DNA from: a virus | DNA length: 44,758 bases | Virus record (IMG/VR): IMGVR_UViG_3300031507_000013 | Location: 1-44,758 of that record | Strand: one strand, 5' to 3' | Shown here: in pieces, positions 9,001 to 37,417 of the stretch | Layout of the letters: each line of letters starts with the position of its first letter | Position numbering within the stretch: the first letter of the stretch is position 1 | Program-made: the position numbers and the translations under genes | Notes under the pieces: model-generated | What the model was told of the DNA's origin: nothing | The model's input: only the letters and a program-made list of their open reading frames with translations | Databases searched by the model: none

Positions 9001-11048
9001 TGCCAACCTTTGATCTGACCTCGCCGGACGGGAAAACTTACTCGATCGAAGGGCCAGACGGTGCGACTCCCGCGCAGGCGTTCCAGATCTTGCAGCAGCA
9101 TCTTCAGGCCGCGCCGCCGCCCGACAAATACCAGCAGGCCGCGCTAGACGAGCAGGCCCAGATCAAAGCGGCTGGAGGTGACACTGGTGCGGGTTATACG
9201 CGCCGGCTCGCTCATGGCGTGACCCTTGGGGCTGATACGACACTCCTTGCCGGCCTCGAAACCCCGCTGGAGATGATCCGACAAGGCACATTCAGCCCGG
9301 CCGAAGGCTACAATTACGCCAAAGCCCGCGAAGATCTGATCATGAACAAGGCGCGCGAGAACACCGGCGCACTCGGGACTGCGGCGGAAGTGCTCGGAGG
9401 AGGTGTGAGCGGCGCTGGGTTGGCGGCTGGCGGTCTGACGGCTGGGCGGCTTCTGGCGCCAGGCGCGAATGTCATCAAGCGGGCGCTGGCTGGCGCTGCC
9501 GATTCCGGTGCGCTCGGGGGATTCTCCGGGGCCATGGAAGGTAATGGCTTGGCCGAGCGGGTACAGAATGCCCTCAAGGGCGCTGGAACAGGCGCGCTTG
9601 TGGGCGGGGCTCTCCCGCTCGCCGGCGCGGCGATTAGCGCCGCAGCCTCACCTGTGATTTCCAACATCCGGGCCAGAATCAACCCCACAGGCTATGCTCA
9701 ATCCCAGATCGCTCGAGCTATCAGCGAAAGCGGGCAAACCCCGGCCGCGCTGGATGCCGCTGTCCAGCAGGCAGGTCGTGAAGGCCAAGGCGTCTTCAAT
9801 GTCGCCGATGCAATGGGCAATGCCGGGCAGGAGATGCTAGGGGCTGCCGCTAGAGGGGCAGGCGCTGGCCGTACGGCGGTTATCAATGCGCTGGAAGGTC
9901 GGCAGGGTACGCAAGGGCGCCGGATTTCGAATGCGCTTGCTGAGGGCTTCAACGCGCCTGAAACGGCCGCTCAAACTGAGGCACGAATGACGACGGCGCG
10001 CGGGACTGCGGCAGACGCGGACTTTGGTGCGGTGCGTGGCGGTTCGGCTCCGGTCAATCTTGTCGGCCCGATCAACCATCTTGACAACATTATCGGGACG
10101 CGGCCAGGCCAAGTCCTGACGCCGGCAAACGATAGTATCGAAGCGGCCTTGACTCCCTTCCGGCAACGCTTGGCGCGGGTCAACCCAGACGATTTCGAGG
10201 CAGTGCAGCGCATACGCGGCGATATGGCGGATGCGGCGCAAAGCGCAAGACAAGGCGGCCAAGGCAACCGGGCGCGGCTGATCGGCGGCGCGGTGCGTCA
10301 GCTTGATGCCGCCATGGAGGCGGCCAGTCCAGGCTATCGACAAGCCAATGCGAACTTCGCGCAGGCATCCCGCAATATCGAGGCAGTGCAAGCCGGACGG
10401 CAGGCGGCAACGCGCGGCCGTACTGAAGACACGATTCCTGCTTTCCAAGCGCTCCAGCCGCAAGGTCAGCAGGCTTTCCGATCCGGCTATGTCGACTCGC
10501 TAATAGCGCAGACCCAAGGCGCGGCTTTTGGCGTCAACAAAGCGCGACCTTTGTTGAACGATGCATTCCAGGCTGAAGCGCAGGCCATGTCCCCAAGAGG
10601 ACAGCTTGTAAATGGCCGCGTTGTCCCTGGAATGAATGTGCAACCAGCATTTCCGCTGATGCAACGCCGGATCGGCCGCGAACAGACCATGTTCGAAACG
10701 CGGAATACGGCGTTGGGAGGGTCACCAACGGCGAAAAACCTCGCGCATGATACTGCGATGGGTGTCAGCCCGCACCTGATCGGACAAGTCCTCACTGGAA
10801 ACGTTCATGGCGCGATCAGGAGCGCGCTTGCCGCAGGCCACAATCTGATGACCGGGAATACCCCACAGGTCCGCGAACAGATCGCCAATGTGCTCTTGCG
10901 CAACGGCTCGAATATGGCCCCGGGCCAACTTCGCGACATGGTGCAGAACACTGTCGCGCGTATCCAGTTCGTGCAGAACATCGCTCGCAATCTCGGACGG
11001 GGTGCCGCTGGCGGCCTCGCGATCGAGGGCGCCCAGCGCCGTCAATGA
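9000..11048 (+). CDS. putative internal virion / ejection protein (682 aa)
   Basis: ATG at 9000 overlaps the upstream TGA. Ala/Gly-rich large protein directly upstream of the transglycosylase. Confidence 0.55.
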   Translation: MPTFDLTSPDGKTYSIEGPDGATPAQAFQILQQHLQAAPPPDKYQQAALDEQAQIKAAGGDTGAGYTRRLAHGVTLGADTTLLAGLETPLEMIRQGTFSPAEGYNYAKAREDLIMNKARENTGALGTAAEVLGGGVSGAGLAAGGLTAGRLLAPGANVIKRALAGAADSGALGGFSGAMEGNGLAERVQNALKGAGTGALVGGALPLAGAAISAAASPVISNIRARINPTGYAQSQIARAISESGQTPAALDAAVQQAGREGQGVFNVADAMGNAGQEMLGAAARGAGAGRTAVINALEGRQGTQGRRISNALAEGFNAPETAAQTEARMTTARGTAADADFGAVRGGSAPVNLVGPINHLDNIIGTRPGQVLTPANDSIEAALTPFRQRLARVNPDDFEAVQRIRGDMADAAQSARQGGQGNRARLIGGAVRQLDAAMEAASPGYRQANANFAQASRNIEAVQAGRQAATRGRTEDTIPAFQALQPQGQQAFRSGYVDSLIAQTQGAAFGVNKARPLLNDAFQAEAQAMSPRGQLVNGRVVPGMNVQPAFPLMQRRIGREQTMFETRNTALGGSPTAKNLAHDTAMGVSPHLIGQVLTGNVHGAIRSALAAGHNLMTGNTPQVREQIANVLLRNGSNMAPGQLRDMVQNTVARIQFVQNIARNLGRGAAGGLAIEGAQRRQ

Positions 11049-11882: not shown

Positions 11883-12383
11883 ATGAACTTGACGCAAGAT
11901 CGACTGAAAGAACTGCTCTCCTATAACCCCCTCACGGGGGTTTTTCTTTGGCTGGAGGGTCGCGGCGGCAAGAAAGCCGGCGATGTCGCAGGGTGCCGAA
12001 AGCGAATATATACGTTCATCTCGGTCGATGATCGCGTTTATCGCGCTCACCTTCTTGCATGGTTCTACATGACGGGCGAGTGGCCCGATCCCTTCGTCGA
12101 TCATCGCGACCTCGACAAGCATAACAACGCTTGGGTCAATCTGAGGCTTGCAACGAAATCGCAGAACCAAGCGAACATCGGCCTCATCAAATCCAACAAG
12201 TCCGGCCTTAAAGGCGTCTCGCGATATCGCGCGGGTGAGAGTTACGGCAAGCCGTGGCAGGCCTGCATAACAAAAGATGGAAAGAGCATGAATCTAGGGC
12301 ACTTCGCCACAAAGGAAGATGCTCACGCGGCTTATGTCGCCACTGCTGAAAGATTATTCGGCGAATTTGCGAGGGCTGCATAA
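11883..12383 (+). CDS. HNH homing endonuclease with AP2-type domain, paralog of 1062..1628 (166 aa)
   Basis: VDHRDLDKHNNAWVNLRLATKSQNQAN followed by GLKGVSRY...GKPWQACITKDGKSMNLGHFATKEDAHAAY. The first about 22 codons are nucleotide-identical to the other copy. Confidence 0.8.
   Translation: MNLTQDRLKELLSYNPLTGVFLWLEGRGGKKAGDVAGCRKRIYTFISVDDRVYRAHLLAWFYMTGEWPDPFVDHRDLDKHNNAWVNLRLATKSQNQANIGLIKSNKSGLKGVSRYRAGESYGKPWQACITKDGKSMNLGHFATKEDAHAAYVATAERLFGEFARAA
11889..11953 (+). repeat. 65-nt segment identical to 1068..1132
   Basis: Exact nucleotide identity. The hairpin AACCCCC-tcac-GGGGGTT plus T-run lies at 11925..11949. Confidence 0.9.
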
Positions 12384-13381
12384 TGGCTTTTTGGTCTTGG
12401 AGTCGAACGGCAGCGACGAATGCCACAGCGGACAGCACGATCAACTACAGCGAAGGGCAGGCACCGTCCACTATCAATGACAGCGCCCGCGCCATGATGG
12501 CCAGGCTTTCCGAATATCGCGACGACATCGCCGGCGCCATTGTTACGGGTGGCAGCTCGACGGCCTACACGGTCACTAGCTTTCAGGTGTTCGATACTCT
12601 GGCTCACATGAGCGGGCAGGTGATTGCATTCACTCCGCACGCAACAAACACGAATGCGGTAGCGGTCGACATTACGCTGAATGTTGATGGTCTCGGCGCA
12701 AAATCAATCCGGGCGGCGCCGAATGTAGCGCTGCCGAACGGGACGCTCATTCTCGGTACCCCGTATATCGTGGTCTACAACAATTCAGACGCAGTATTTT
12801 ATCTGCGAGGAATGAGCAATCCTTATTCGATTCCGCTTGCTGGAGGTATCGATTTCTGGGGTACGACGGCACCGAATTCATCATTCGCGTTTCCGATCGG
12901 GCAGGCGCTTTCGCGCACGACTTATGCGACGTTGTTCTCGATTATGAGCACTACCTATGGCGCAGGAGACGGATCTACCACGTTCAACCTTCCTGACAAA
13001 ACTGGCCGTGTTTCGGCGATGAAAGAGGCCAGTGCCACGCGGCTGACCTCAACATATTTCGTCGGCAATTCGACAACGCTTGGCGCAACCGGAGGATTAG
13101 AAAGCAACACGCTGGTCACAGCCAATCTTCCACCCTACACCCCAGCGGGATCAGTAACAGTTACTCCAAGTTTCGGAGCCAATGGAACGCCTCTGGGTGT
13201 GTTCAGTGGTGGCGGATCAAATGGGTTTGCTGCTGGTGCAAATCAAAGTGCAAATTTCTTTGGTGGCGCAGGCGTATCTCTTCCTGCATCATTCACGGGT
13301 ACTGCACAGGGAGGAATCAGTACGCCAGCCAAAATCGTGCAGCCAACCATCATATGCAACTACATCCTGCGGATCATCTAG
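12383..13381 (+). CDS. tail fibre protein with phage tail-collar domain (332 aa)
   Basis: The C-terminal part FPIGQALSRTTYATLFSIMSTTYGAGDGSTTFNLPDKTGR matches the tail-collar (Collar) motif. TAATG overlap with the HNH gene. Confidence 0.75.
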   Translation: MAFWSWSRTAATNATADSTINYSEGQAPSTINDSARAMMARLSEYRDDIAGAIVTGGSSTAYTVTSFQVFDTLAHMSGQVIAFTPHATNTNAVAVDITLNVDGLGAKSIRAAPNVALPNGTLILGTPYIVVYNNSDAVFYLRGMSNPYSIPLAGGIDFWGTTAPNSSFAFPIGQALSRTTYATLFSIMSTTYGAGDGSTTFNLPDKTGRVSAMKEASATRLTSTYFVGNSTTLGATGGLESNTLVTANLPPYTPAGSVTVTPSFGANGTPLGVFSGGGSNGFAAGANQSANFFGGAGVSLPASFTGTAQGGISTPAKIVQPTIICNYILRII

Positions 13382-13551
13382 AGGCCCATATTTGTAAGCG
13401 GCAGTAGAATCGCTAATGTGGCAATGATGGTCAGCCACGCCAATGCACCGAGAATGATTTTCGTTTTCATCGCGCCAAAGTAGCAAACCAAACCCGGACA
13501 ATCAATGACCGATCTTAACGCGCTCAAGTCCGCGAATGCGGGACCGCGCCC

Positions 13552-14166
13552 ATGAAAACATCACCAAACGGGCGGTTGTTCATCGAGGCGTTCGAAGGCA
13601 AATTTCTCCACACCTATGACGACGGTACGGGGGTTCTGACGATCGGATATGGCCATACATCGGCGGCTGGCCCTCCTGCCGTATTCCGTGGACAGACGAT
13701 CACCGACGCGCAATGCGATGCCATCTTGGCCACCGATCTCGCCGCAGTCGAGCGTAATGTCGAGCGCTGCATCAAGGCACCGATAGTGCAAGCGCAATTC
13801 GATGCGTTGGTATCGTTCGATTTCAATACAGGTTCGTTGGCTAAATCGTCGATAGACGACAAGATCAATTCCGGTAACCCTGGTGCTGCAATGGTGACTT
13901 TGCTGCAATACGATCATGCTGCCGGCCAGCAAATGGCTGGTCTCACACGACGGAGACGAGCAGAAATACTCATGTTTAATGGCGATATTTCCGGCGCCCT
14001 TAAGCTTGCCGGCGCTCATGCCATGACCGGAACGAAGATGCCGCAGGCTCCAACAACATCTGCACCGATAGATAAGCCTGCACCGCCATCGATCTCCCAT
14101 CCCGCGCCTGGCAGTATCGGCGCTTTCATCGCGTCAATCTTCAATGCCATCTTCCGAAGGAAATAG
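13552..14166 (+). CDS. endolysin, T4/lambda-type lysozyme (GH24) with Pro-rich linker and cationic amphipathic C-terminal helix (204 aa)
   Basis: LFIEAFEGKFLHTYDDGTGVLTIGYGHT carries the E...D...T catalytic arrangement of GH24 lysozymes. The C-terminus reads PAPPSISHPAPGSIGAFIASIFNAIFRRK. Confidence 0.85.
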   Translation: MKTSPNGRLFIEAFEGKFLHTYDDGTGVLTIGYGHTSAAGPPAVFRGQTITDAQCDAILATDLAAVERNVERCIKAPIVQAQFDALVSFDFNTGSLAKSSIDDKINSGNPGAAMVTLLQYDHAAGQQMAGLTRRRRAEILMFNGDISGALKLAGAHAMTGTKMPQAPTTSAPIDKPAPPSISHPAPGSIGAFIASIFNAIFRRK

Positions 14167-14167
14167 C

Positions 14168-14527
14168 ATGTTCTCCCTGATCTTCATTATTCCCGGTCTG
14201 ATCGCTGCCTATTTCATGCTTCTGCGGCCGTTCCTCGAAAAGCTTCCCGCATTCCAGAAGTTCTACATTGAGGCAGATGGCTTCTGGGCCAAGGTCTGGG
14301 CGGTCTGCGGCAAGTCCCTGACTCTTTCATGGTCGTATATCCTGATGGGCGCAGGCGCATTGCTCAATCAGCTTGATAGCATCGCGGCCACAATGGGAGA
14401 CCCGAATTTCAAGGCGCAAGTTGCAGACTTCCTCCATTCTGACCCGAAATATCTCGGCTACTTCGCGATGCTGGTTTCCGCCGTGACGATTGCGGCGCGT
14501 CTCCGCTCGATTGGGAAGGCTGCCTGA
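14168..14527 (+). CDS. membrane protein of lysis cassette (holin/antiholin candidate, 119 aa)
   Basis: ATG lies 1 nt after the endolysin stop. Hydrophobic segments are LIFIIPGLIAAYFMLL, SYILMGAGALL and YFAMLVSAVTIAA. Confidence 0.55.
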   Translation: MFSLIFIIPGLIAAYFMLLRPFLEKLPAFQKFYIEADGFWAKVWAVCGKSLTLSWSYILMGAGALLNQLDSIAATMGDPNFKAQVADFLHSDPKYLGYFAMLVSAVTIAARLRSIGKAA

Positions 14528-14528
14528 G

Positions 14529-14957
14529 ATGCTTGAATGGATCGCCGCAAAACTGCTTGCCACTCCGGTCATTGGCGCCATTCTTAATCCGATCATATCG
14601 GGGCTGCTCACCGCGCAGAAACAGCATTTGGATGCCGTTGGCAGTCATGAGGCTGTAGCCGCCGATCTGGCAAAGCGTGCGTTTGATCTCGATCAGCGCG
14701 AGGCTGAGGTCAACGCCAGCATGGTCATAGCAGAGCAGGGCAATTGGATAACCCGATCAGTGCGTCCGATGTTCGCGGCACCGTTCATCGTCTTCCTCTG
14801 GAAGGTTGTAGTTTGGGACAAGGTGCTTGGACTCGGCACGACTGATCCGCTCGACCCGAAAATGTGGGGCGTTTTTATGCTCGTCGTCGGGGCCTATATG
14901 GGCGGTCGCACGGCTGAACGTGTCGCTGACAAGATCGCTGGGGTATTCAAGAAGTGA
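14529..14957 (+). CDS. 3-TM holin candidate (GTA-type holin-like, 142 aa)
   Basis: ATG at 14529 follows the upstream TGA. TM segments are LLATPVIGAILNPIISGLL, FAAPFIVFLWKVVVW and WGVFMLVVGAYMGG. It resembles the 'holin of 3TMs for gene-transfer release' family from memory. Confidence 0.55.
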   Translation: MLEWIAAKLLATPVIGAILNPIISGLLTAQKQHLDAVGSHEAVAADLAKRAFDLDQREAEVNASMVIAEQGNWITRSVRPMFAAPFIVFLWKVVVWDKVLGLGTTDPLDPKMWGVFMLVVGAYMGGRTAERVADKIAGVFKK

Positions 14958-15130
14958 GCTGCGCTGTCTTCCTCGCCATGCTGTTTCCTGGCATTGACAT
15001 TGCAAACCTCGATCGAACCCGCATCTATGAGGTACCGGGTCCTATTGTTGCATCCACGCCAGTTTCAAAGGTCTGGCTCGCGAAAGCCTGTGCGATCAAA
15101 TATGGGATTCACTGGCGAGTGGTGAAATGA
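14954..15130 (+). CDS. small ORF (58 aa), function unknown
   Basis: GTG overlaps the holin stop (GTGA), and its stop overlaps the next ATG (ATGA). No lipobox, so it is not an obvious o-spanin. Confidence 0.3.
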   Translation: MSCAVFLAMLFPGIDIANLDRTRIYEVPGPIVASTPVSKVWLAKACAIKYGIHWRVVK

Positions 15131-15276
15131 CCCCGGAATGGGTTACGGCAATTTGTGCTATAACTTCAGTAGCGTTTGGCATCCCTGCGGCTTGCATTCA
15201 CATTTATCGAATTTGTCAGATCGAGAAAAACACTAGAAATTTGAAGCGACCCAACCCAACCGGTCGAAACGGTTAG
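15127..15276 (+). CDS. small single-TM protein (49 aa)
   Basis: ATGA overlap with the previous ORF. TM segment WVTAICAITSVAFGIPAACIHIY followed by a basic tail. Confidence 0.35.
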   Translation: MTPEWVTAICAITSVAFGIPAACIHIYRICQIEKNTRNLKRPNPTGRNG

Positions 15277-15351
15277 GTCAGGTCTGGCCACCACAGAGCT
15301 TAGGACTCCGAAGATGGTTGAAACCATTCTATTTTCGTTTGAGTTAATATT

Positions 15352-15846
15352 TTGACTACGTTCATCACGCTTCGGTTTGTGGAACAGCAAAAAGGCGTGT
15401 TTACGAAGCTGATCGGCGTTGCCCAATACGGCTCCGAGCTTTCGCATGTCGAGGCGGAGACCGAAGATGGAACCTACATTGGTGCGCATCTCCTCGGTGG
15501 CGTGCAAGAGCTCAAGCCCGGCTATGATGCCGGCTTCAGGCGAGAGTTATTTGTCCGTCTGAAGGCCACTCCAGAGCAGGCAGACGCATTCATCGCATTC
15601 CTGCGCAGCCATCTCCACGAACCCTACGATCCCATCGCTGTCGTCTACTTTTGGGGGCCGTTCGCCAATCGAAATTGGCATGAACCTGGCGCATGGGAAT
15701 GCACACAGTTCATCGCAACTGGGCTTCTAGCCTGCAAATGGCTCCCCGAGAACAAGGAGGTTCCAGCAGGCCGGCTTACCCCCCGCGACTTGTATTGGCT
15801 CACAAGCACTTTGGAAGCTATGGCCAGCGGTGGGGCGAATGCTTGA
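15352..15846 (+). CDS. putative permuted papain-fold (NlpC/P60 / YiiX-like) peptidase (164 aa)
   Basis: TTG start (there is no in-frame ATG near the 5' end). His-first order SHVEAETEDGTYIGAHLLGG ... YD ... then Cys in AWECTQFIATGL, as in permuted NlpC/P60 amidases. It lies in a low-GC stretch. Confidence 0.45.
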   Translation: MTTFITLRFVEQQKGVFTKLIGVAQYGSELSHVEAETEDGTYIGAHLLGGVQELKPGYDAGFRRELFVRLKATPEQADAFIAFLRSHLHEPYDPIAVVYFWGPFANRNWHEPGAWECTQFIATGLLACKWLPENKEVPAGRLTPRDLYWLTSTLEAMASGGANA

Positions 15847-16135
15847 TGCGGTTTTCGAGCATATTTACCTGTCGTGCATTGCATTCGGATTCGTTGGTGC
15901 GGCTCTGCACCTTGCAAACACAGAGGAAAAGATCTCAGCCAAGTACGCCATACGTTATTTGGTCACTGGCATGACGATGGCGAACCTTCTCGCTCCTCAT
16001 TTGTTTAAGATATTGACCATGTTCCCGCTTGAAGTGATCTCGACGGGAGTTGGCGCAACCGGAAAGCATTGGTTCTCTCTCCTAGAATTGGCTTTCAGAA
16101 AACTGGATCTGCTCGGAAAGACAAAGAATGAATAA
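15839..16135 (+). CDS. 2-3 TM membrane protein, holin-like topology (98 aa)
   Basis: ATG at 15839 overlaps the upstream gene by 8 nt. TM segments are IYLSCIAFGFVGAALHLA and YLVTGMTMANLLAPHLF. Confidence 0.55.
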   Translation: MLDAVFEHIYLSCIAFGFVGAALHLANTEEKISAKYAIRYLVTGMTMANLLAPHLFKILTMFPLEVISTGVGATGKHWFSLLELAFRKLDLLGKTKNE

Positions 16136-16505
16136 CCTACTCCAAGCGTCCATTTGCTTTTACTCGTTCATTGCCATGTCTGGAGCATGCCTCCTGCTTT
16201 ATGTCTTGTATCTGGCTCTGGAAGATCTCCACCTCAACAGAACCGACAAGCCAAGTGTCATCAAGGACCGCAAGCGCGCATTCTTTGCAGATGCGATATT
16301 TATCGCTCTGACGGTTGGATTCCGAGAATATTGGATCATCCATCCAATCGTTGCACTGGTCGCTTCAGGATTCATCGTCGGCGGCGCGTGGATATTAGTC
16401 GTCAATGTCATATCCCTGCGCGATCGAGCTCCGCACCCGCCAAACGATCACGGCTACCAAGCCGCAAGATCAGGATGGTGGAGAAACTATAGGAGACCGT
16501 TTTGA
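16128..16505 (+). CDS. 3-TM membrane protein (125 aa)
   Basis: ATG overlaps the upstream gene's 3' end. TM segments are ICFYSFIAMSGACLLLYVLYLAL, AIFIALTVGF and IVALVASGFIVGGAWILVVNVI. Confidence 0.6.
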   Translation: MNNLLQASICFYSFIAMSGACLLLYVLYLALEDLHLNRTDKPSVIKDRKRAFFADAIFIALTVGFREYWIIHPIVALVASGFIVGGAWILVVNVISLRDRAPHPPNDHGYQAARSGWWRNYRRPF

Positions 16506-16510
16506 AATTG

Positions 16511-16603
16511 ATGTGGCTTGCTGCCGGCGCTGGTCTGGCAATTTGGTTAGTATCGTCAACCGATCTTCCATGGGAAATTATCAATATGGGGGTACGTCCG
16601 TGA
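16511..16603 (+). CDS. micro-ORF, single TM (30 aa)
   Basis: MWLAAGAGLAIWLVSSTDLPWEIINMGVRP. It starts 6 nt after the upstream stop, and its stop overlaps the next GTG (GTGA). Confidence 0.3.
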   Translation: MWLAAGAGLAIWLVSSTDLPWEIINMGVRP

Positions 16604-16794
16604 AAGATGATCCGTGGCAGGCCGTCAGGAATGTTATTGCGCATGCGATCGAGGGAATTGTTGCTCTCGTCGGCGCGCTCGCCCTCATCGTCATTGTTGG
16701 GATGATGATCGAGTCCAGAGGAACATACGTCGAAGACCATGGACGCTGCCTGAAGCAAGCCACCAACGGCTATGAAATCGAGCGGTGCCGATGA
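16600..16794 (+). CDS. small single-TM protein (64 aa)
   Basis: GTG at 16600 in frame with track ORF 16405..16794. TM segment IEGIVALVGALALIVIVGMMI. C-terminal Cys pair. Confidence 0.4.
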   Translation: MKDDPWQAVRNVIAHAIEGIVALVGALALIVIVGMMIESRGTYVEDHGRCLKQATNGYEIERCR

Positions 16795-16886
16795 GGCAGA
16801 ATTTCAACATCATGCTGTTTTCGATCTTCCTGGTTGGACTGATCATCTCGACCGGACATTCGATCATGCAGCATTGGCCATGGTAA
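16791..16886 (+). CDS. micro-ORF, single TM (31 aa)
   Basis: ATGA overlap with the upstream stop. MRQNFNIMLFSIFLVGLIISTGHSIMQHWPW. It competes with the N-terminal part of track ORF 16772..16999. Confidence 0.25.
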   Translation: MRQNFNIMLFSIFLVGLIISTGHSIMQHWPW

Positions 16887-16999
16887 ACGTAGTGCGCTGG
16901 CTGATGATCATAGCGGCCATCCTGCTATCTCCGTTCTATGCGCTGTGGGTGGGGTGCGGCTGGATCGCTGATCAGTTGGAGCGCAAACGATGGGCATAG
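16880..16999 (+). CDS. micro-ORF, single TM (39 aa)
   Basis: ATG at 16880 overlaps the previous TAA (ATGGTAA). MVNVVRWLMIIAAILLSPFYALWVGCGWIADQLERKRWA. It may instead start at 16772. Confidence 0.35.
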   Translation: MVNVVRWLMIIAAILLSPFYALWVGCGWIADQLERKRWA

Positions 17000-17052
17000 T
17001 CGCCTATACCATCCTGATCCTCATCCTGATAGCGGTTTTCGATCGAGGATGA
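16990..17052 (+). CDS. micro-ORF, hydrophobic (20 aa)
   Basis: ATG overlaps the 3' end of the previous ORF. MGIVAYTILILILIAVFDRG. It is the last plus-strand ORF before the convergent junction. Confidence 0.2.
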   Translation: MGIVAYTILILILIAVFDRG

Positions 17053-17063
17053 GTTCTTAGTTG

Positions 17064-17079
17064 TAGCTTATTAAAGCTA
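17064..17079. terminator. weak AT-rich hairpin at the convergent late/early junction
   Basis: tagctt-atta-aagcta followed by tttcgtatt on the plus strand. It lies between the last plus ORF (17052) and the stop of the last minus ORF (17077). Confidence 0.3.
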
Positions 17080-17253
17080 TTTCGTATTCAGCCACGCCAG
17101 CATATCGTCGGCATTGTCGAACGATGCTTCCGGCGGCTCTTTGTCGGCGGCCAAGATTTCCTTGACAAACTCTCGCCTGATCTTCTTCGCTGGCCACCGC
17201 TTTGGCTTCTTCGGATCGCCGTAACTCGCGACCACCTTCGGTTTCTTGGTCAT
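17077..17253 (-). CDS. small basic protein (58 aa)
   Basis: MTKKPKVVASYGDPKKPKRWPAKKIRREFVKEIL... It is the last gene of the minus-strand operon. It is below the length of the shortest ORFs in the supplied track and was found by reading the strand. Confidence 0.45.
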   Translation of the reverse strand: MTKKPKVVASYGDPKKPKRWPAKKIRREFVKEILAADKEPPEASFDNADDMLAWLNTK

Positions 17254-35307: not shown

Positions 35308-35429
35308 TGCGACCAGGCACCCGAGTTTTCATTATCACTGACTATGCCGCGATCGAGATCACAAAGGACGGTCATATCCTGCGCAACCTAAATTGGTGTG
35401 ACCCGCGCATTCTAGTGCTGCGCCCATGA
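35307..35429 (+). CDS. 40-codon ORF intervening between the two portal ORFs
   Basis: MRPGTRVFIITDYAAIEITKDGHILRNLNWCDPRILVLRP. TGATG overlap upstream and ATGA overlap downstream. Confidence 0.35.
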   Translation: MRPGTRVFIITDYAAIEITKDGHILRNLNWCDPRILVLRP

Positions 35430-37417
35430 ACGCATACGTCGGCGCGGCGCAGGGCAACCCGATCGAGCCAGCCCAAAACGCGCTCGTTCAGACACCGGCT
35501 CAACAGCTCCAAGCACTCCCGCCGGAGCCGCCCAAGCCGATAAGTCACGACGTCACGATCGTCACAACCCGCAAGCTCGCCCGTGCCCGAGCGCTCGGGG
35601 TTCCTCCCGAGGAATTCGGCATCGAGCGGGCCGCGCGGGACATCAAGACATGCAATTACTGTTTTCACGAGGTCGTCACCAAAACCCGCGCGCAGCTGAT
35701 CGCGGAGGGCTTTGACGAAGACCAAATCAACGCCATCACGACATGGACCGGCCAGGCACCTACCGCCGTTGAGGTTCAGGCCCGTGATTCCGTCCATGAA
35801 AGCTATTGGACATCCTCGGACATCAACACGGCGGCCCAGCCGGTCAAGATCACCGAGCATTACGTTCGGATGGATTACCGCGGTGACGGACGGCCATGCC
35901 TCTACATGGTGGTGACGGGAGGCGATCTCGGCGACGTTCTCAAAAAGGACGGGAAGGAGGTGATCGAACCAGTCGATGTTATCCCATTCGCCGCGACCAC
36001 GCCGGTTCCGATCACGCACCGGTTCTTTGGGCGATCGATCGCCGATCTGGTCATGCCGGCGCAGCGGGAAAAGACGGCGCTCAAGCGCGGCGCGCTGGAC
36101 AACCTTTATCTGCACAACAATCCGCGCGTAGAGGTCGCGGAGCAAAATGCTGGACCGAATACTCTCGATGATCTTCTGGTTAGCCGCCCTGGTGGCGTGG
36201 TTCGCACAAAGACGCCGGGCGGGCTGAACTGGCAGACCGTGCCGGATATCACCCCGTCGATCTACCCCATGATGAATTACATCGATGCCGAGCTAGAAGC
36301 CCGCACCGGCTTGGCCAAACAGACGCAGGGCATTGATGCCAACGCGCTGCAGAACCAGTCGGCTACGGCCGTGGCGCAAGTGTTCAGCGCCTCCCAGATG
36401 CGCATCAAGCTCGTCGCGCGCATCATGGCGGAGGGCGTGCGGGACATCTTCTCTTTGCTGCACCACACCATTCGCTCGCACGGGCAGGAAAAGCAGACCG
36501 TACGGCTGCGCAACAAATGGGTTCCGGTCGACCCGCGTGCATGGAAAACCCGCGACGACATGACGATCCATGTCGGGCTTGGCTCTGGCGGGAAGGCCCA
36601 GCAGTTCGCCCAGGTCATGGCGCTCGGCAACGTGCAGAAGGAACTGCTGGCTGGCGGCAAATCCAATCTGGTCGGCGACCGCGAGCTTTATAATACTGCG
36701 GCGGAACTGACCCGGATCATGGGGCACAAGAACCCGGACCAGTTCTTCAACGATCCGACCGCCAAAAAACCGGATGGCTCGCTGAAGAACCCGCCGGTGC
36801 CTCCCCCGCCAGATCCGAAGGTGCAGATCGAGCAGATGAAGGCCCAGGGACAGGCCCAGCTCGAGCAGCAGAAGCAACAGCATACAATGCAGGTTGAGCA
36901 GGGCAAAGGACAGCTAGAGCTATTCAAGACCCAGGCCAAGGCCCAGCAGGACGCCGACAAGGCCAAGCTGGATGCTATGCATCAGCAGATGAAGACTGAG
37001 GCCGAAATCGAACTGGCGCGGCAAAAAGCTCAGCTTGAGACGGAAAAGGCCGTCATCGATGCCCAACTGAAGAAGGAATTGGCGCAGATCGAAGCGCAGA
37101 TGAAACAGCAGAACATGGCGCACCAGCAGGCCACTCACCAGCACGAGATGGCCATGAAGCAGATGGAAATGGCCCACGCGAACAGCCAGCATCAGCAGAA
37201 GATGCAGCATGTCCAATCTGCGCATGAGAGCAAGATGAAGCAGGGTGAGGCCAAGGCGAAGGCCAAGAGCGCACCAAAGCCTCAAGCTCCGAAGGCTGAG
37301 AAGCCGGCCGGCAGCCCTGTGGATGATGCCGTGAAGATCCTTGAGGCGGTGGCCAAGGTGCAGAAGCCGAAAAAGGTAATCCGTGACGACAAAGGTCAGG
37401 TGACGGGCATCGAATGA
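35426..37417 (+). CDS. portal protein, C-terminal part with long Gln/Lys-rich coiled-coil tail (663 aa)
   Basis: VPPEEFGIERAARDIKTCNYCFHEVVTKTRAQLIAEGFDEDQI plus a large conserved core. About 160 C-terminal residues form a heptad-like Q/K/A/E-rich helix reminiscent of the P22 portal barrel. The position after TerL supports the call. Confidence 0.7.
   Translation: MNAYVGAAQGNPIEPAQNALVQTPAQQLQALPPEPPKPISHDVTIVTTRKLARARALGVPPEEFGIERAARDIKTCNYCFHEVVTKTRAQLIAEGFDEDQINAITTWTGQAPTAVEVQARDSVHESYWTSSDINTAAQPVKITEHYVRMDYRGDGRPCLYMVVTGGDLGDVLKKDGKEVIEPVDVIPFAATTPVPITHRFFGRSIADLVMPAQREKTALKRGALDNLYLHNNPRVEVAEQNAGPNTLDDLLVSRPGGVVRTKTPGGLNWQTVPDITPSIYPMMNYIDAELEARTGLAKQTQGIDANALQNQSATAVAQVFSASQMRIKLVARIMAEGVRDIFSLLHHTIRSHGQEKQTVRLRNKWVPVDPRAWKTRDDMTIHVGLGSGGKAQQFAQVMALGNVQKELLAGGKSNLVGDRELYNTAAELTRIMGHKNPDQFFNDPTAKKPDGSLKNPPVPPPPDPKVQIEQMKAQGQAQLEQQKQQHTMQVEQGKGQLELFKTQAKAQQDADKAKLDAMHQQMKTEAEIELARQKAQLETEKAVIDAQLKKELAQIEAQMKQQNMAHQQATHQHEMAMKQMEMAHANSQHQQKMQHVQSAHESKMKQGEAKAKAKSAPKPQAPKAEKPAGSPVDDAVKILEAVAKVQKPKKVIRDDKGQVTGIE

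What the first reader, a model, noticed from the sequence alone, without database searches (positions are those of the whole stretch)
15127..17052. Low-GC island after the lysis cassette: permuted papain-like peptidase followed by a chain of overlapped membrane micro-ORFs
G+C drops sharply at the distal end of the late operon. My spot counts of 60-nt lines are 23/60 at 15181-15240 and 29/60 at 16141-16200, against 43/60 at 9361-9420.

A weak hairpin plus T-run sits at about 15314-15340. After it, the island encodes:
- a TTG-initiated 164-aa protein with His-before-Cys order (SHVEAE...YD...WECTQF), like permuted NlpC/P60 or YiiX amidases;
- a 98-aa 2-3 TM protein;
- a 125-aa 3-TM protein;
- five successive tiny hydrophobic ORFs of 30, 64, 31, 39 and 20 aa, four of which overlap their upstream neighbour at the start/stop codons (GTGA, ATGA, ATGGTAA, ATGGGCATAG).

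This comes in addition to an apparently complete lysozyme plus holin cassette at 13552..14957. That makes up to nine consecutive membrane proteins plus a cell-wall-type hydrolase of foreign composition. I know of no described module with this layout. Candidate roles are a second lysis or lysis-timing device, superinfection exclusion, or a membrane-acting defence/counter-defence cassette.
Basis: partly seen in the sequence, partly recalled or inferred. Interest (0 to 1): 0.65.

Follow-up and report, generated by a model that had tools for sequence, protein, structure and literature searches.

The report
Accessory lysis-like cassette with permuted peptidase
At the far end of this phage's late operon lies a conserved but optional gene cassette: a soluble "permuted papain" hydrolase, a holin-like membrane protein, a second 3-helix membrane protein and several real micro-proteins, which most likely acts as an extra cell-envelope-breaking or lysis-timing device that has not been described before.

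Summary
All coordinates, start/stop overlaps and spot GC counts are exact. The 164-aa TTG-initiated protein is a permuted papain-like NlpC/P60 enzyme of the YaeF/YiiX type. His32 and Cys117 are invariant and Tyr92 nearly so. The AF2 model is confident, and its best structural matches are 3kw0 and YiiX.

It is the first gene of a trio with 8-nt overlaps: hydrolase, a 98-aa 3-TM holin-like protein, and a 125-aa 3-TM protein. I found this trio in about 15 other phage contigs, down to very low identity. The micro-ORFs of 64, 39 and 20 aa are conserved and under purifying selection. The 30-aa and 31-aa ORFs each rest on a single close relative.

The "foreign composition" claim is not supported. The GC dip is only 5 points and third-codon-position GC is mostly normal. 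The hairpin with T-run is not conserved. The cassette is optional: phages with homologous lysozyme and holin genes lack it.

Best reading (about 0.4): a late-expressed accessory lysis cassette, in which a cytoplasmic hydrolase is released or positioned by its own holin-type membrane proteins, with an envelope lipid, lipoprotein or peptidoglycan substrate. Main rival: an exclusion or envelope-modifying moron. It is a new variant of a known kind, and the function is untested.

The parts
15246..15351 (+). Conserved non-coding leader in front of the hydrolase gene. Its left end overlaps the last 10 codons of the 49-aa ORF.
   Evidence: In 10 loci the mean column identity is 85%, with long invariant blocks. 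The left edge is sharp, and beyond it the upstream genes are unrelated. A predicted stem-loop at about 15249-15286 has only one compensatory pair, and the fold z-score is -1.6, so a structure is unproven. There is no Rfam match. The leader is absent in L001, L004 and L026, where the gene abuts the upstream ORF.
15352..15846 (+). 164-aa soluble permuted papain-like NlpC/P60 hydrolase/acyltransferase (PPNE, YaeF/YiiX-like) with a TTG start
   Evidence: There are 28 close homologues and 2470 representative clusters at E<=1e-3. His32, Gly50 and Cys117 are invariant, and Tyr92 and Asp93 are nearly invariant, across 66 diverse members. The AF2 model has pLDDT 85.7. Foldseek top hits are 3kw0 and 2if6 YiiX and BFVD proteins named "permuted papain-like amidase". 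The family profile aligns its His, YD and CSE motifs to 3kw0. No TM segment or signal peptide was found. dN/dS is 0.20.
15839..16135 (+). 98-aa 3-TM holin-like membrane protein (p98). It overlaps the hydrolase gene by 8 nt.
   Evidence: It matches PHROG 2359 "holin" at E=3.3e-4, and 5 of 6 relatives match with a best E of 6.4e-7. The AF2 model has pLDDT 86.6 with three long helices. Its BFVD structural neighbours are mostly annotated as holins, including the LydA superfamily III. The family has 57 members, all unannotated. Polar residues H24, N49 and E83 are conserved, together with K76/H77 of the majority GKH motif. dN/dS is 0.23.
16128..16505 (+). 125-aa 3-TM membrane protein (p125). It overlaps p98 by 8 nt.
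   Evidence: It always follows p98, including in the distant loci L052, L054 and L055. It has a conserved charged loop (DLHLNRTD...RK) and a basic tail (SLRERAPP). There is no Pfam or PHROG family match. dN/dS is 0.18.
16502..16603 (+). 33-aa (TTG) or 30-aa (ATG 16511) hydrophobic ORF. Its status is uncertain.
   Evidence: The only homologue is in L021 (85% aa). The ORF lies in a stretch where nucleotide homology to L005 breaks off (window 16441-16606 against L005 2406-2482). Eight substitutions are too few to judge selection.
16600..16794 (+). 64-aa single-pass membrane protein (p64) with an N-terminal DDPWxAVRN motif and two conserved C-terminal Cys residues
   Evidence: It is conserved in 8 other loci at 70-94% aa identity. 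Variable sites by codon position are 20/12/46 and dN/dS is 0.15. Shorter relatives that keep the same N-terminal motif occur in L004 and L054.
16791..16886 (+). 31-aa hydrophobic ORF. Its status is uncertain.
   Evidence: A homologue exists only in the close relative L005. Other loci carry different small TM ORFs at this position.
16880..16999 (+). 39-aa single-pass membrane micro-protein (p39)
   Evidence: It is conserved in 10 further loci at 54-85% aa identity, and in L054. Variable sites are 11/10/23 by codon position. dN/dS is 0.18-0.22, against 0.9-1.3 in the other frames. In the window a TAG shortens it by 6-12 codons relative to its relatives.
16990..17052 (+). 20-aa hydrophobic micro-protein (p20), the last gene of the late operon
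   Evidence: It is conserved at 60-95% aa identity in 8 loci, always overlapping the end of p39. Variable sites are 6/5/14-15 by codon position. dN/dS is 0.24, against 0.6-1.0 in the other frames.
13552..14957 (+). Context: the canonical lysis genes upstream. These are the lysozyme (13552-14166), a 127-aa TM protein (14144-14527) and a GTA-type 3-TM holin (14490-14957).
   Evidence: Pfam Phage_lysozyme E=8.8e-34. GTA_holin_3TM E=4.8e-5. PHROG 3427 holin E=7.7e-9.

Best explanation
The core of the island (15352-17052) is an accessory, late-expressed, lysis-type cassette.

**Components.** The first gene makes a soluble cytoplasmic thiol hydrolase/acyltransferase of the permuted papain (NlpC/P60, YiiX-like) fold. 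It is translationally coupled to a class-I-like, LydA-like 3-TM holin-type protein (p98) and a second 3-TM protein (p125). Small single-pass proteins (p64, p39, p20) follow.

**Proposed mechanism.** The membrane proteins assemble in the inner membrane late in infection. They either let the signal-less enzyme reach the envelope, as a holin does for an endolysin, or dock it on the membrane. The enzyme then cleaves an amide or ester bond in an envelope component: an acylated lipid or lipoprotein, or a peptidoglycan peptide or tether. This speeds up or completes envelope breakdown. p125 and the micro-proteins would tune the timing, like antiholins.

**Shown.** The fold and the catalytic His/Tyr/Cys residues. 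The absence of an export signal. The 3-TM holin-like architecture of p98. The fixed gene order with overlaps. Purifying selection on six of the eight ORFs. The position after the lysis genes.

**Inferred.** Late co-transcription, physical or functional coupling of enzyme and membrane proteins, the substrate, and any effect on lysis.
For: 1. **Enzyme.** His32 and Cys117 are invariant and Tyr92 is nearly invariant in 66 diverse members. The model is confident and its best matches are 3kw0 and YiiX. The profile aligns the catalytic motifs to 3kw0. No TM segment or signal peptide is found, which is the property of holin-dependent endolysins.
2. **p98.** It matches PHROG 2359 "holin" in 5 of 6 members, best E 6.4e-7. 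The 3-helix model has neighbours that are overwhelmingly annotated as holins, including LydA superfamily III. It is 98 aa long with a charged C-terminus.
3. **Fixed trio.** The trio with 8-nt overlaps occurs in about 15 distinct loci, including L052, L054 and L055, where the enzyme matches the family profile only at E about 1e-22.
4. **Position.** The trio always sits at the distal end of the late operon. In the loci where lysis genes could be recognised upstream (window, L001, L004, L006, L019/L057, L020, L022) it lies just downstream of them. It is usually tightly packed against the upstream gene: a 4-nt overlap in L001, and gaps of 11-60 nt in L026, L052 and L055. This argues for late co-transcription.
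5. **Distant relatives next to muralytic genes.** One overlaps a GH25 gene by 1 nt (L009). One lies in a GH108 lysis cluster (L012). One lies 1.4 kb from an N-acetylmuramidase in Ralstonia jumbo phage RP13, with TM proteins between them.
6. **L007 lineage.** No recognisable muramidase lies between the tail fibre and the operon end, so the permuted enzyme is the only enzyme-like gene there.
7. **Large phages.** Family members occur in phages with 93-290 kb genomes (V22, RP13, Vibrio Yong XC31). This points to a role in the lytic cycle rather than in lysogeny.
8. **Precedent.** A permuted NlpC/P60 enzyme is known to work as a complex with an integral membrane protein: LnsA-LnsB (PMC13559823).
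Against: - The window already has an apparently complete lysozyme plus holin pair.
- The cassette is dispensable for this phage type. Eight loci with homologous lysozyme and/or holin genes lack it.
- In many other lineages the enzyme family follows tail-fibre and chaperone genes, not lysis genes. Examples are RSA1, between the tail-fibre genes and FI, and V22, after the receptor-binding protein and its chaperone. The neighbours in 21 IMG/VR loci are dominated by tail-fibre families. The lysis link could therefore be positional, reflecting only the end of the late operon.
- "Holin" labels in PHROGs and BFVD are mostly unverified annotations, and the Foldseek E-values are marginal (3e-3 to 0.1).
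- p98 has unusually well-conserved polar residues inside its helices, which is atypical for holins.
- The third catalytic residue of YiiX-type enzymes aligns to an invariant Gly.
- Nothing here measures expression, localisation or activity.
Confidence: 0.4

Rival explanations
1. Moron-type cargo. The cassette would be a superinfection-exclusion or envelope-modifying module. It would alter a membrane lipid, lipoprotein or receptor, or block DNA entry, to protect the infected or lysogenic cell from other phages. It would not take part in lysis.
For: - Presence/absence polymorphism among phages with homologous lysis genes.
- A terminal position in the late operon, next to the convergent early block. 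This is a classic cargo site.
- In P2-like RSA1 the enzyme sits between the tail-fibre genes and FI. From my own knowledge, that is the Z/fun cargo hotspot of P2.
- In V22 and many IMG/VR loci it follows receptor-binding genes, where exclusion genes such as cor and llp are typically found (own knowledge).
- The variable small TM ORFs interleaved in the cassette differ between relatives.
- GC is slightly lower.
- In some lineages a conserved leader could carry its own regulatory signals.
Against: - No sigma-70-like promoter or conserved terminator flanks the cassette.
- GC3 is mostly normal, so there is no sign of recent foreign origin.
- In several loci the first gene overlaps or abuts the upstream late gene.
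- The enzyme has no export signal, so it cannot reach surface receptors without a membrane lesion.
- Family members occur in jumbo phages. From my own knowledge, these are generally virulent.
Confidence: 0.25
2. The hydrolase acts on a cytoplasmic protein target and is functionally independent of the membrane ORFs. It could be an isopeptidase, deacylase or maturation protease for tail-fibre or virion proteins. It could also remove a host defence modification, for example a ubiquitin-like tag placed on tail proteins.
For: - The protein is soluble and signal-less.
- Across the wider family the most frequent neighbours are tail-fibre and tail-fibre-chaperone genes, often with overlapping stop/start codons.
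- The permuted papain fold is shared with PPPDE/DeSI isopeptidases. 3ebq is rank 7 in Foldseek with probability 0.51.
Against: - In this clade the enzyme is locked to p98 and p125 by 8-nt overlaps over deep divergence.
- The best structural matches are the lipid-binding YiiX and 3kw0 proteins, not PPPDE.
- No defence-system link was observed.
- The tail-fibre adjacency may simply reflect the operon end.
Confidence: 0.1
3. The small ORFs are chance open frames in a hydrophobic, AT-richer spacer, and only the 164-aa gene is real.
For: The 30-aa and 31-aa ORFs have support only from one close relative each. Short ORFs are common by chance.
Against: p98, p125, p64, p39 and p20 are conserved across many loci. 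They show a third-position excess and dN/dS of 0.15-0.24, while the alternative frames give 0.6-1.3. p64, p39 and p20 are more conserved between the window and L026 than the enzyme itself.
Confidence: 0.03

Closest known systems
[quoted passage not shown]
   Same: His-before-Cys order with an invariant dyad. A conserved Tyr (YD motif) precedes the Cys. The beta-sheet-plus-helices core is shared. These are the top Foldseek and profile matches. Eleven of 66 family members reach PF05708 at E down to 2.2e-5.
   Different: The window protein itself gets no Pfam hit. The position of the third catalytic residue (Glu64 of BcPPNE) aligns to an invariant Gly. TM-scores are only 0.52-0.57. This is a phage-borne sister family of about 150-170 aa. 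No member with a known function turned up in any search run here.
Canonical holin-endolysin lysis cassettes, for example P1 LydA/LydB with Lyz or lambda S/R (own knowledge of these systems)
   Same: A signal-less soluble enzyme gene lies next to a roughly 100-aa 3-TM protein with a charged C-terminus, followed by a further membrane protein. All are at the end of the late operon with overlapping genes. p98 matches a PHROG holin family and LydA-like models.
   Different: The enzyme is not a known muralytic class. [quoted passage not shown] The cassette comes in addition to a lysozyme plus holin pair and is optional. It carries conserved 64-, 39- and 20-aa micro-proteins with no known counterpart.
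LnsA-LnsB lipoprotein N-acyltransferase of Staphylococcus aureus (PMC7387801, PMC13559823)
   Same: A permuted NlpC/P60 enzyme with a Cys/His dyad needs an integral membrane partner and acts on membrane lipid or lipoprotein substrates.
   Different: LnsA is secreted with a cleaved signal peptide, whereas this enzyme has none. LnsB is a CPBP-family polytopic protein, whereas p98 and p125 are small 3-TM proteins with no CPBP match. The lns genes are not adjacent and are not phage genes.
Ralstonia phage RSA1 ORF26 and Alteromonas phage V22 ORF28 (PHROG 1128)
   Same: Same protein family (PHROG 1128 E=2.7e-7 for the window protein; tblastn links).
   Different: These genes stand alone after the tail-fibre and chaperone genes, without p98 or p125. 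The PHROG label "enoyl-CoA hydratase/carnithine racemase-like" appears to be a mis-annotation.

Membership tests
[quoted passage not shown] | Circular permutation: the catalytic His lies N-terminal to the catalytic Cys, and both are invariant | tested here: met
   H32 and C117 are invariant in 27 close and 66 diverse homologues. They align to His49 and Cys154 of 3kw0 (residue numbers from PMC3142127).
[quoted passage not shown] | Conserved Tyr that contacts the P1 carbonyl | tested here: met
   Y92 is at least 90% conserved, within the PYD motif. It aligns to the YD of 3kw0, which is Tyr127.
[quoted passage not shown] | Third polar triad residue about 15 residues after the His (Glu64 in BcPPNE) | tested here: inconclusive
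   The profile alignment places invariant Gly44 at that column. A remote alignment may be shifted by a residue or two. PPPDE1 and LRAT tolerate loss of this residue (PMC3142127).
[quoted passage not shown] | Core fold (5-stranded sheet plus helices) superposable on solved members | tested here: met
   Foldseek against 3kw0 gives E=7.4e-4 and TM 0.54-0.57. Against 2if6 it gives E=5.8e-3 and TM 0.55, both with probability 1.0. BFVD hits are annotated as C92 family.
[quoted passage not shown] | Match to the Pfam model above threshold | tested here: not met
   The window protein has no Pfam hit at E<=1. Only 11 of 66 relatives match PF05708 weakly, best E 2.2e-5. It is best filed as a divergent sister family within the permuted NlpC/P60 group.
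[quoted passage not shown] | Hydrophobic S1 pocket or lipid binding | not testable with these tools
This needs pocket analysis or biochemistry.
Holins (class I / superfamily III, LydA-like) | Small protein (60-150 aa) with TM helices and a charged hydrophilic C-terminus | tested here: met
   p98 is 98 aa. Helices run at 11-27, 34-58 and 64-97 in a model with pLDDT 86.6, and the tail reads RKLDLLGKTKNE.
Holins (class I / superfamily III, LydA-like) | Sequence or structure relationship to a recognised holin family | tested here: inconclusive
   PHROG 2359 "holin" matches at E=3.3e-4 for the window protein and 6.4e-7 for a relative. BFVD neighbours are annotated as holin or LydA with probability 1.0 but E of 3e-3 to 0.1. 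There is no Pfam holin hit, only a weak YLATT match at E=1e-3. The labels are not experimentally verified.
Holins (class I / superfamily III, LydA-like) | Timed, lethal hole formation that releases the lytic enzyme | not testable with these tools
   This needs expression and complementation assays.
Holins (class I / superfamily III, LydA-like) | Dual-start holin/antiholin motif | tested here: not met
   An upstream in-frame GTG (V-G-R-M) exists in the window and close relatives. It is replaced by stop codons in L001, L004, L052, L054 and L055.
Spanins (Rz/Rz1 or unimolecular) | A lipobox-bearing outer-membrane lipoprotein ORF in the lysis region | tested here: not met
   No lipobox ORF lies on the + strand at 12300-17100, even with a permissive pattern. 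Relatives that lack the cassette mostly lack one too, so the cassette is not specifically a spanin substitute.
Moron (autonomous cargo gene set) | Own promoter and terminator, and deviant composition | tested here: not met
   No promoter-like site was found. The terminator-like hairpin is not conserved. GC3 is mostly like the rest of the genome.
Moron (autonomous cargo gene set) | Presence/absence polymorphism among otherwise related phages | tested here: met
   The cassette is absent from L056/L064, L060, L062, L063, L065, L067, L068 and L069, all of which share the lysozyme and/or holin genes.
LnsAB-type two-component acyltransferase | A permuted NlpC/P60 enzyme plus a CPBP-family membrane partner, with the enzyme exported | tested here: not met
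   p98 and p125 have no CPBP match, and the enzyme has no signal peptide. Only the general principle of enzyme plus membrane partner is shared.

The most novel reading that the evidence does not exclude
The cassette is a new kind of phage lysis device. A dedicated LydA-like holin complex (p98, p125 and micro-protein regulators) would release or dock a permuted-papain enzyme whose substrate is not murein glycan. Instead it would cut an acyl-amide or tether bond of the envelope, for example in ornithine or lysine lipids, in lipoprotein anchors, or in covalent links between outer-membrane proteins and peptidoglycan in alphaproteobacterial hosts. This would be a lipid- or tether-cutting step in Gram-negative lysis, comparable to mycobacteriophage LysB.
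Probability: 0.12. Interest if true: 0.8.

Novelty: new variant of a known kind. Interest (0 to 1): 0.52.

Why it matters
Phage lysis of Gram-negative cells is usually explained by holin, endolysin and spanin.

This cassette is recurrent and under purifying selection. It pairs a signal-less enzyme from the lipid-associated, permuted branch of NlpC/P60 with holin-like and micro-protein membrane partners. The phage group that carries it mostly shows no recognisable spanin.

If the cassette acts in lysis, it would add a new enzyme class and new small regulators to the lysis toolkit. It would also give a first function to a family of at least 2,400 protein clusters that is currently mislabelled "enoyl-CoA hydratase-like" in phage annotation. 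The enzyme could be of interest as an envelope-active enzybiotic.

If the cassette is instead an exclusion module, it would be a new membrane-based one.

Independently of function, three micro-proteins of 20-64 aa with clear signatures of selection are good test cases for micro-ORF annotation.

Tried and rejected
- **Direct family and structure searches.** Pfam and PDB sequence searches with the 164-aa protein alone found nothing. The link appeared only through structure and a broader profile.
- **Host or prophage context.** A GTDB genome scan for a prophage copy found no relative. The host is inferred only from 70% nucleotide identity of the lysozyme gene to a Bradyrhizobium phage.
- **Rfam.** No family matched in the window or in the leader.
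- **Promoter and terminator scan.** Nothing useful lies around the island.
- **Dual-start antiholin motif in p98.** Not conserved.
- **Spanin search and the "spanin substitute" idea.** No lipobox ORF was found, but relatives without the cassette lack one too, so there is no correlation. My first, stricter lipobox filter missed true lipoproteins in L007 and L062 and was relaxed.
- **Search for p98 in deposited phage genomes.** tblastn found no match.
- **p125.** No family assignment in Pfam or PHROGs.
- **Covariation in the leader.** The sequences are too conserved to test a structure.
- **Identity of alternative endolysins.** Attempts to identify those of L052 and L006 through PDB sequence search found nothing.
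- **Literature.** No paper gives a function for phage permuted papain-like amidases or for PHROG 1128.
- **Not run.** A p125-anchored homologue search and a metagenome scan were skipped. The trio's co-occurrence was already established from two independent anchors.

Full report
**1. What is in the sequence**

The window looks like a complete, circularly permuted phage genome.
- The portal gene is at 35426-37417 (SU10-type).
- A collar-domain tail fibre is at 12383-13381.
- A Rad52-type recombinase and a CI-like HTH protein lie on the minus strand.
- The plus-strand late operon ends at 17052 and meets a minus-strand block that starts at 17077.

The three spot GC counts also reproduce.

The island (15127-17052) is the lowest-GC stretch of its size in the window: 51.7% against 57.1%, in the bottom 0.5% of sliding windows. 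The drop is only about 2 SD. Third-codon-position GC of most island genes (0.55-0.73) is like that of the rest of the genome (0.56-0.76). Much of the deficit therefore sits at codon positions 1 and 2, as expected for hydrophobic proteins. I do not accept "foreign composition".

**2. The 164-aa protein**

It has 28 close homologues. A profile search finds 2470 representative clusters at E<=1e-3, nearly all single-domain proteins of 145-180 aa.

Across 66 diverse members, His32, Gly50 and Cys117 are invariant. Phe9, Val51, Tyr58, Gly89, Tyr92 and Asp93 are at least 90% conserved.

The AlphaFold model is confident (pLDDT 85.7, pTM 0.83).
- Its best PDB matches are the Bacillus cereus YaeF/YiiX-family cysteine peptidase 3kw0 and E. 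coli YiiX 2if6, both with probability 1.0 and TM about 0.55. PPPDE1 follows far behind.
- Among viral models, its matches include proteins named "permuted papain-like amidase, YaeF/YiiX, C92 family".
- The family profile hits 3kw0 by sequence (E=0.005). It aligns the SH, YD and CSE motifs onto His49, Tyr127 and Cys154 of that enzyme (residue roles from PMC3142127).
- Eleven of 66 members touch Pfam PF05708. The window protein itself does not.

The third triad residue (Glu64 in 3kw0) aligns to an invariant glycine, so that feature is unresolved.

There is no TM segment or signal peptide. The N-terminal extensions seen in a few homologues are not hydrophobic.

Calling it a "cell-wall-type hydrolase" goes too far, because the permuted branch is the lipid-associated one:
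- YiiX crystallised with a fatty acid, and the authors proposed cleavage of fatty-acyl-amino-acid amides (PMC3142127).
- LnsA is a lipoprotein N-acyltransferase (PMC7387801, PMC13559823).
- Tox-Act1 and LRAT are lipid-directed (PMC12994826).

**3. The membrane ORFs**

Using the enzyme as an anchor, and separately using p98, I recovered about 15 distinct contigs that carry the same order: enzyme, p98, p125, with 8-nt overlaps. These are L001, L004-L007, L017-L022, L026, L052, L054 and L055. In L052 and L055 the enzyme matches the family profile only at about 1e-22, so the trio is old.

- **p98** is a 3-helix membrane protein (model pLDDT 86.6). It matches PHROG 2359 "holin" (best E 6.4e-7 among relatives). 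Its structural neighbours are mostly annotated as holins, including the LydA superfamily III. Its family of 57 proteins is otherwise unannotated. It carries conserved polar residues within the helices.
- **p125** is a 3-TM protein with a strongly conserved charged loop and a basic tail. It has no family match.
- **p64** (DDPWxAVRN motif, one TM, two conserved C-terminal Cys), **p39** and **p20** recur in 8-10 loci. Changes concentrate at third codon positions, with median dN/dS of 0.15, 0.2 and 0.24. The other reading frames of the same DNA give 0.6-1.3. They are real genes. Between the window and L026 they are more conserved (85-90% aa) than the enzyme (62%).
- The **30/33-aa** and **31-aa** ORFs are seen only in one close relative each (L021 and L005). 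Other relatives carry different small TM ORFs at those positions. Their status is open.

**4. Boundaries and regulation**

Homology to relatives begins sharply at about 15246. This is inside the last codons of the 49-aa ORF and 106 nt before the TTG start.

This leader has 85% mean column identity across ten loci whose upstream genes are unrelated. It is at least as conserved as the coding sequence. It contains a predicted extended stem-loop. With only one compensatory pair and a z-score of -1.6, the structure is unproven, and Rfam has no match.

Its stem is not maintained in L005, L006 or L007, so I reject it as a conserved terminator.

The leader is missing where the enzyme gene abuts or overlaps the preceding late gene, as in L001, L004 and L026. 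Together with the lack of promoter-like sites, this suggests transcription with the late operon.

**5. Is it an indel?**

Eight loci have a homologous lysozyme and/or GTA-type holin but lack the enzyme, p98 and p125. One of them is a locus that matches Bradyrhizobium phage ppBeUSDA76-2. Five loci have the lysozyme and/or holin genes together with the cassette. The cassette is optional cargo at a fixed site.

**6. Context of the wider enzyme family**

Two patterns appear.
- **Next to muralytic and membrane genes.** One member overlaps a GH25 gene (L009). One lies in a GH108 cluster (L012). One lies 1.4 kb from the N-acetylmuramidase of Ralstonia jumbo phage RP13, with 1- and 3-TM proteins between them. 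In the L007 lineage, no recognisable muramidase lies between the tail fibre and the operon end.
- **Directly after tail-fibre or chaperone genes.** This is the case in P2-like RSA1 and in Alteromonas V22. Tail-fibre families dominate the neighbours of 21 IMG/VR loci.

The common denominator is the end of the late operon. This weakens pure guilt-by-association with lysis.

**7. Interpretation**

I favour an accessory lysis-type cassette (0.4). A signal-less hydrolase is genetically welded to a holin-like protein and further small membrane proteins, directly downstream of the lysis genes. This has the logic of a holin-endolysin unit, with an unusual enzyme whose relatives handle acyl or lipid substrates.

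The main rival is a moron-type exclusion or envelope-modification module (0.25). Its support comes from the presence/absence pattern and from the tail-fibre-adjacent contexts.

A cytoplasmic protein-directed role for the enzyme (0.1) cannot be excluded.

I tested the attractive idea that the cassette replaces spanins. The window has no lipobox ORF, but most relatives lack one whether or not they carry the cassette. The data give no specific support for that idea.

**8. Novelty and score**

The enzyme fold is known, and a few phage homologues are already annotated as permuted papain-like amidases. PHROG 1128 labels the same family, wrongly in my view, as "enoyl-CoA hydratase/carnithine racemase-like".

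The conserved trio with its micro-protein retinue, and its position, are not described in the literature I could search.

I rate it a new variant of a known kind, with interest 0.52. It is solidly real and conserved, plausibly important for lysis biology, and functionally untested.

Noticed in passing
window 15246-15351 (also L005 1212-1316, L006 4619-4726, L007 5890-6000, L017-L022): A roughly 106-nt non-coding leader upstream of the hydrolase gene is 85% identical across ten loci. Its left boundary is sharp, and beyond it the upstream genes are unrelated. It has invariant blocks (GGTCTGGCCACC..ACAGAGC, CAGATGGTT, AGTTAATATTTTGACTACG) and a possible long stem-loop. The gene starts with TTG and has no clear Shine-Dalgarno sequence. 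The leader could be a regulatory RNA, a processing site or a module-junction sequence.
   Followed up: partly
window 13552-14166 (aa 168-204); L004 3701-4387; L006 2417-3094: The lysozyme ends in a hydrophobic/amphipathic basic tail (PAPGSIGAFIASIFNAIFRRK). The same tail is attached to a different, unrelated catalytic domain in L004 and L006. A shared C-terminal membrane-active or anchoring module is swapped between endolysin types. It is a candidate outer-membrane-disrupting element in a phage group that mostly shows no lipobox (spanin-type) ORFs.
   Followed up: partly
window 14954-15130: A 58-aa ORF directly after the holin is extremely conserved in 4 other loci. Variable sites are 14/4/44 by codon position and dN/dS is 0.05. 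It has no family match.
   Followed up: partly
window 12300-17100 and the whole + strand: No lipobox-bearing ORF is present, so there is no recognisable o-spanin or u-spanin. The same is true of most related loci. Exceptions are L007, L052, L055 and L062, which encode 74-130-aa lipoproteins in the lysis region.
   Followed up: partly
L050 (Ralstonia phage RSA1 ORF26) and L051 (Alteromonas phage V22 ORF28): PHROG 1128, and RefSeq products derived from it, call this permuted papain-like family "enoyl-CoA hydratase/carnithine racemase-like". This looks like a propagated mis-annotation.
   Followed up: partly
window 15127-15276; L005 541-1207; L006 4198-4615: The slot between the lysis genes and the cassette holds different cargo in each relative: a 49-aa TM ORF here, a PAS-domain protein plus an 86-aa ORF in L005, and other small ORFs in L006 and L007. 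The 49-aa ORF is 37 aa in L026. In the window it runs on into the conserved leader.
   Followed up: partly
L007 7153-7718; L060 7706-7924; L069 8123-8764: A two-gene unit recurs at the operon end in phages with or without the cassette. It consists of a 70-74-aa 3-TM protein followed by a 115-119-aa coiled-coil protein, which gives a weak Rz-like PHROG hit (E=0.009).
   Followed up: no
window 16997-16999: The 39-aa gene ends at a TAG where all relatives read on for 6-12 more codons, overlapping p20 further. The window copy is C-terminally shortened.
   Followed up: no
L052 1-2720: A 1363-aa protein with InPase and ART-PolyVal toxin-type domains lies just upstream of the lysis genes of a distant cassette-bearing phage. 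It may be a virion-delivered effector.
   Followed up: no
window 17053-17076: Only 24 nt separate the convergent late and early blocks. A short AT-rich inverted repeat (TAGCTT-ATTA-AAGCTA) starts in this gap, runs a few bases into the end of the minus-strand gene, and could act as a weak bidirectional terminator.
   Followed up: no
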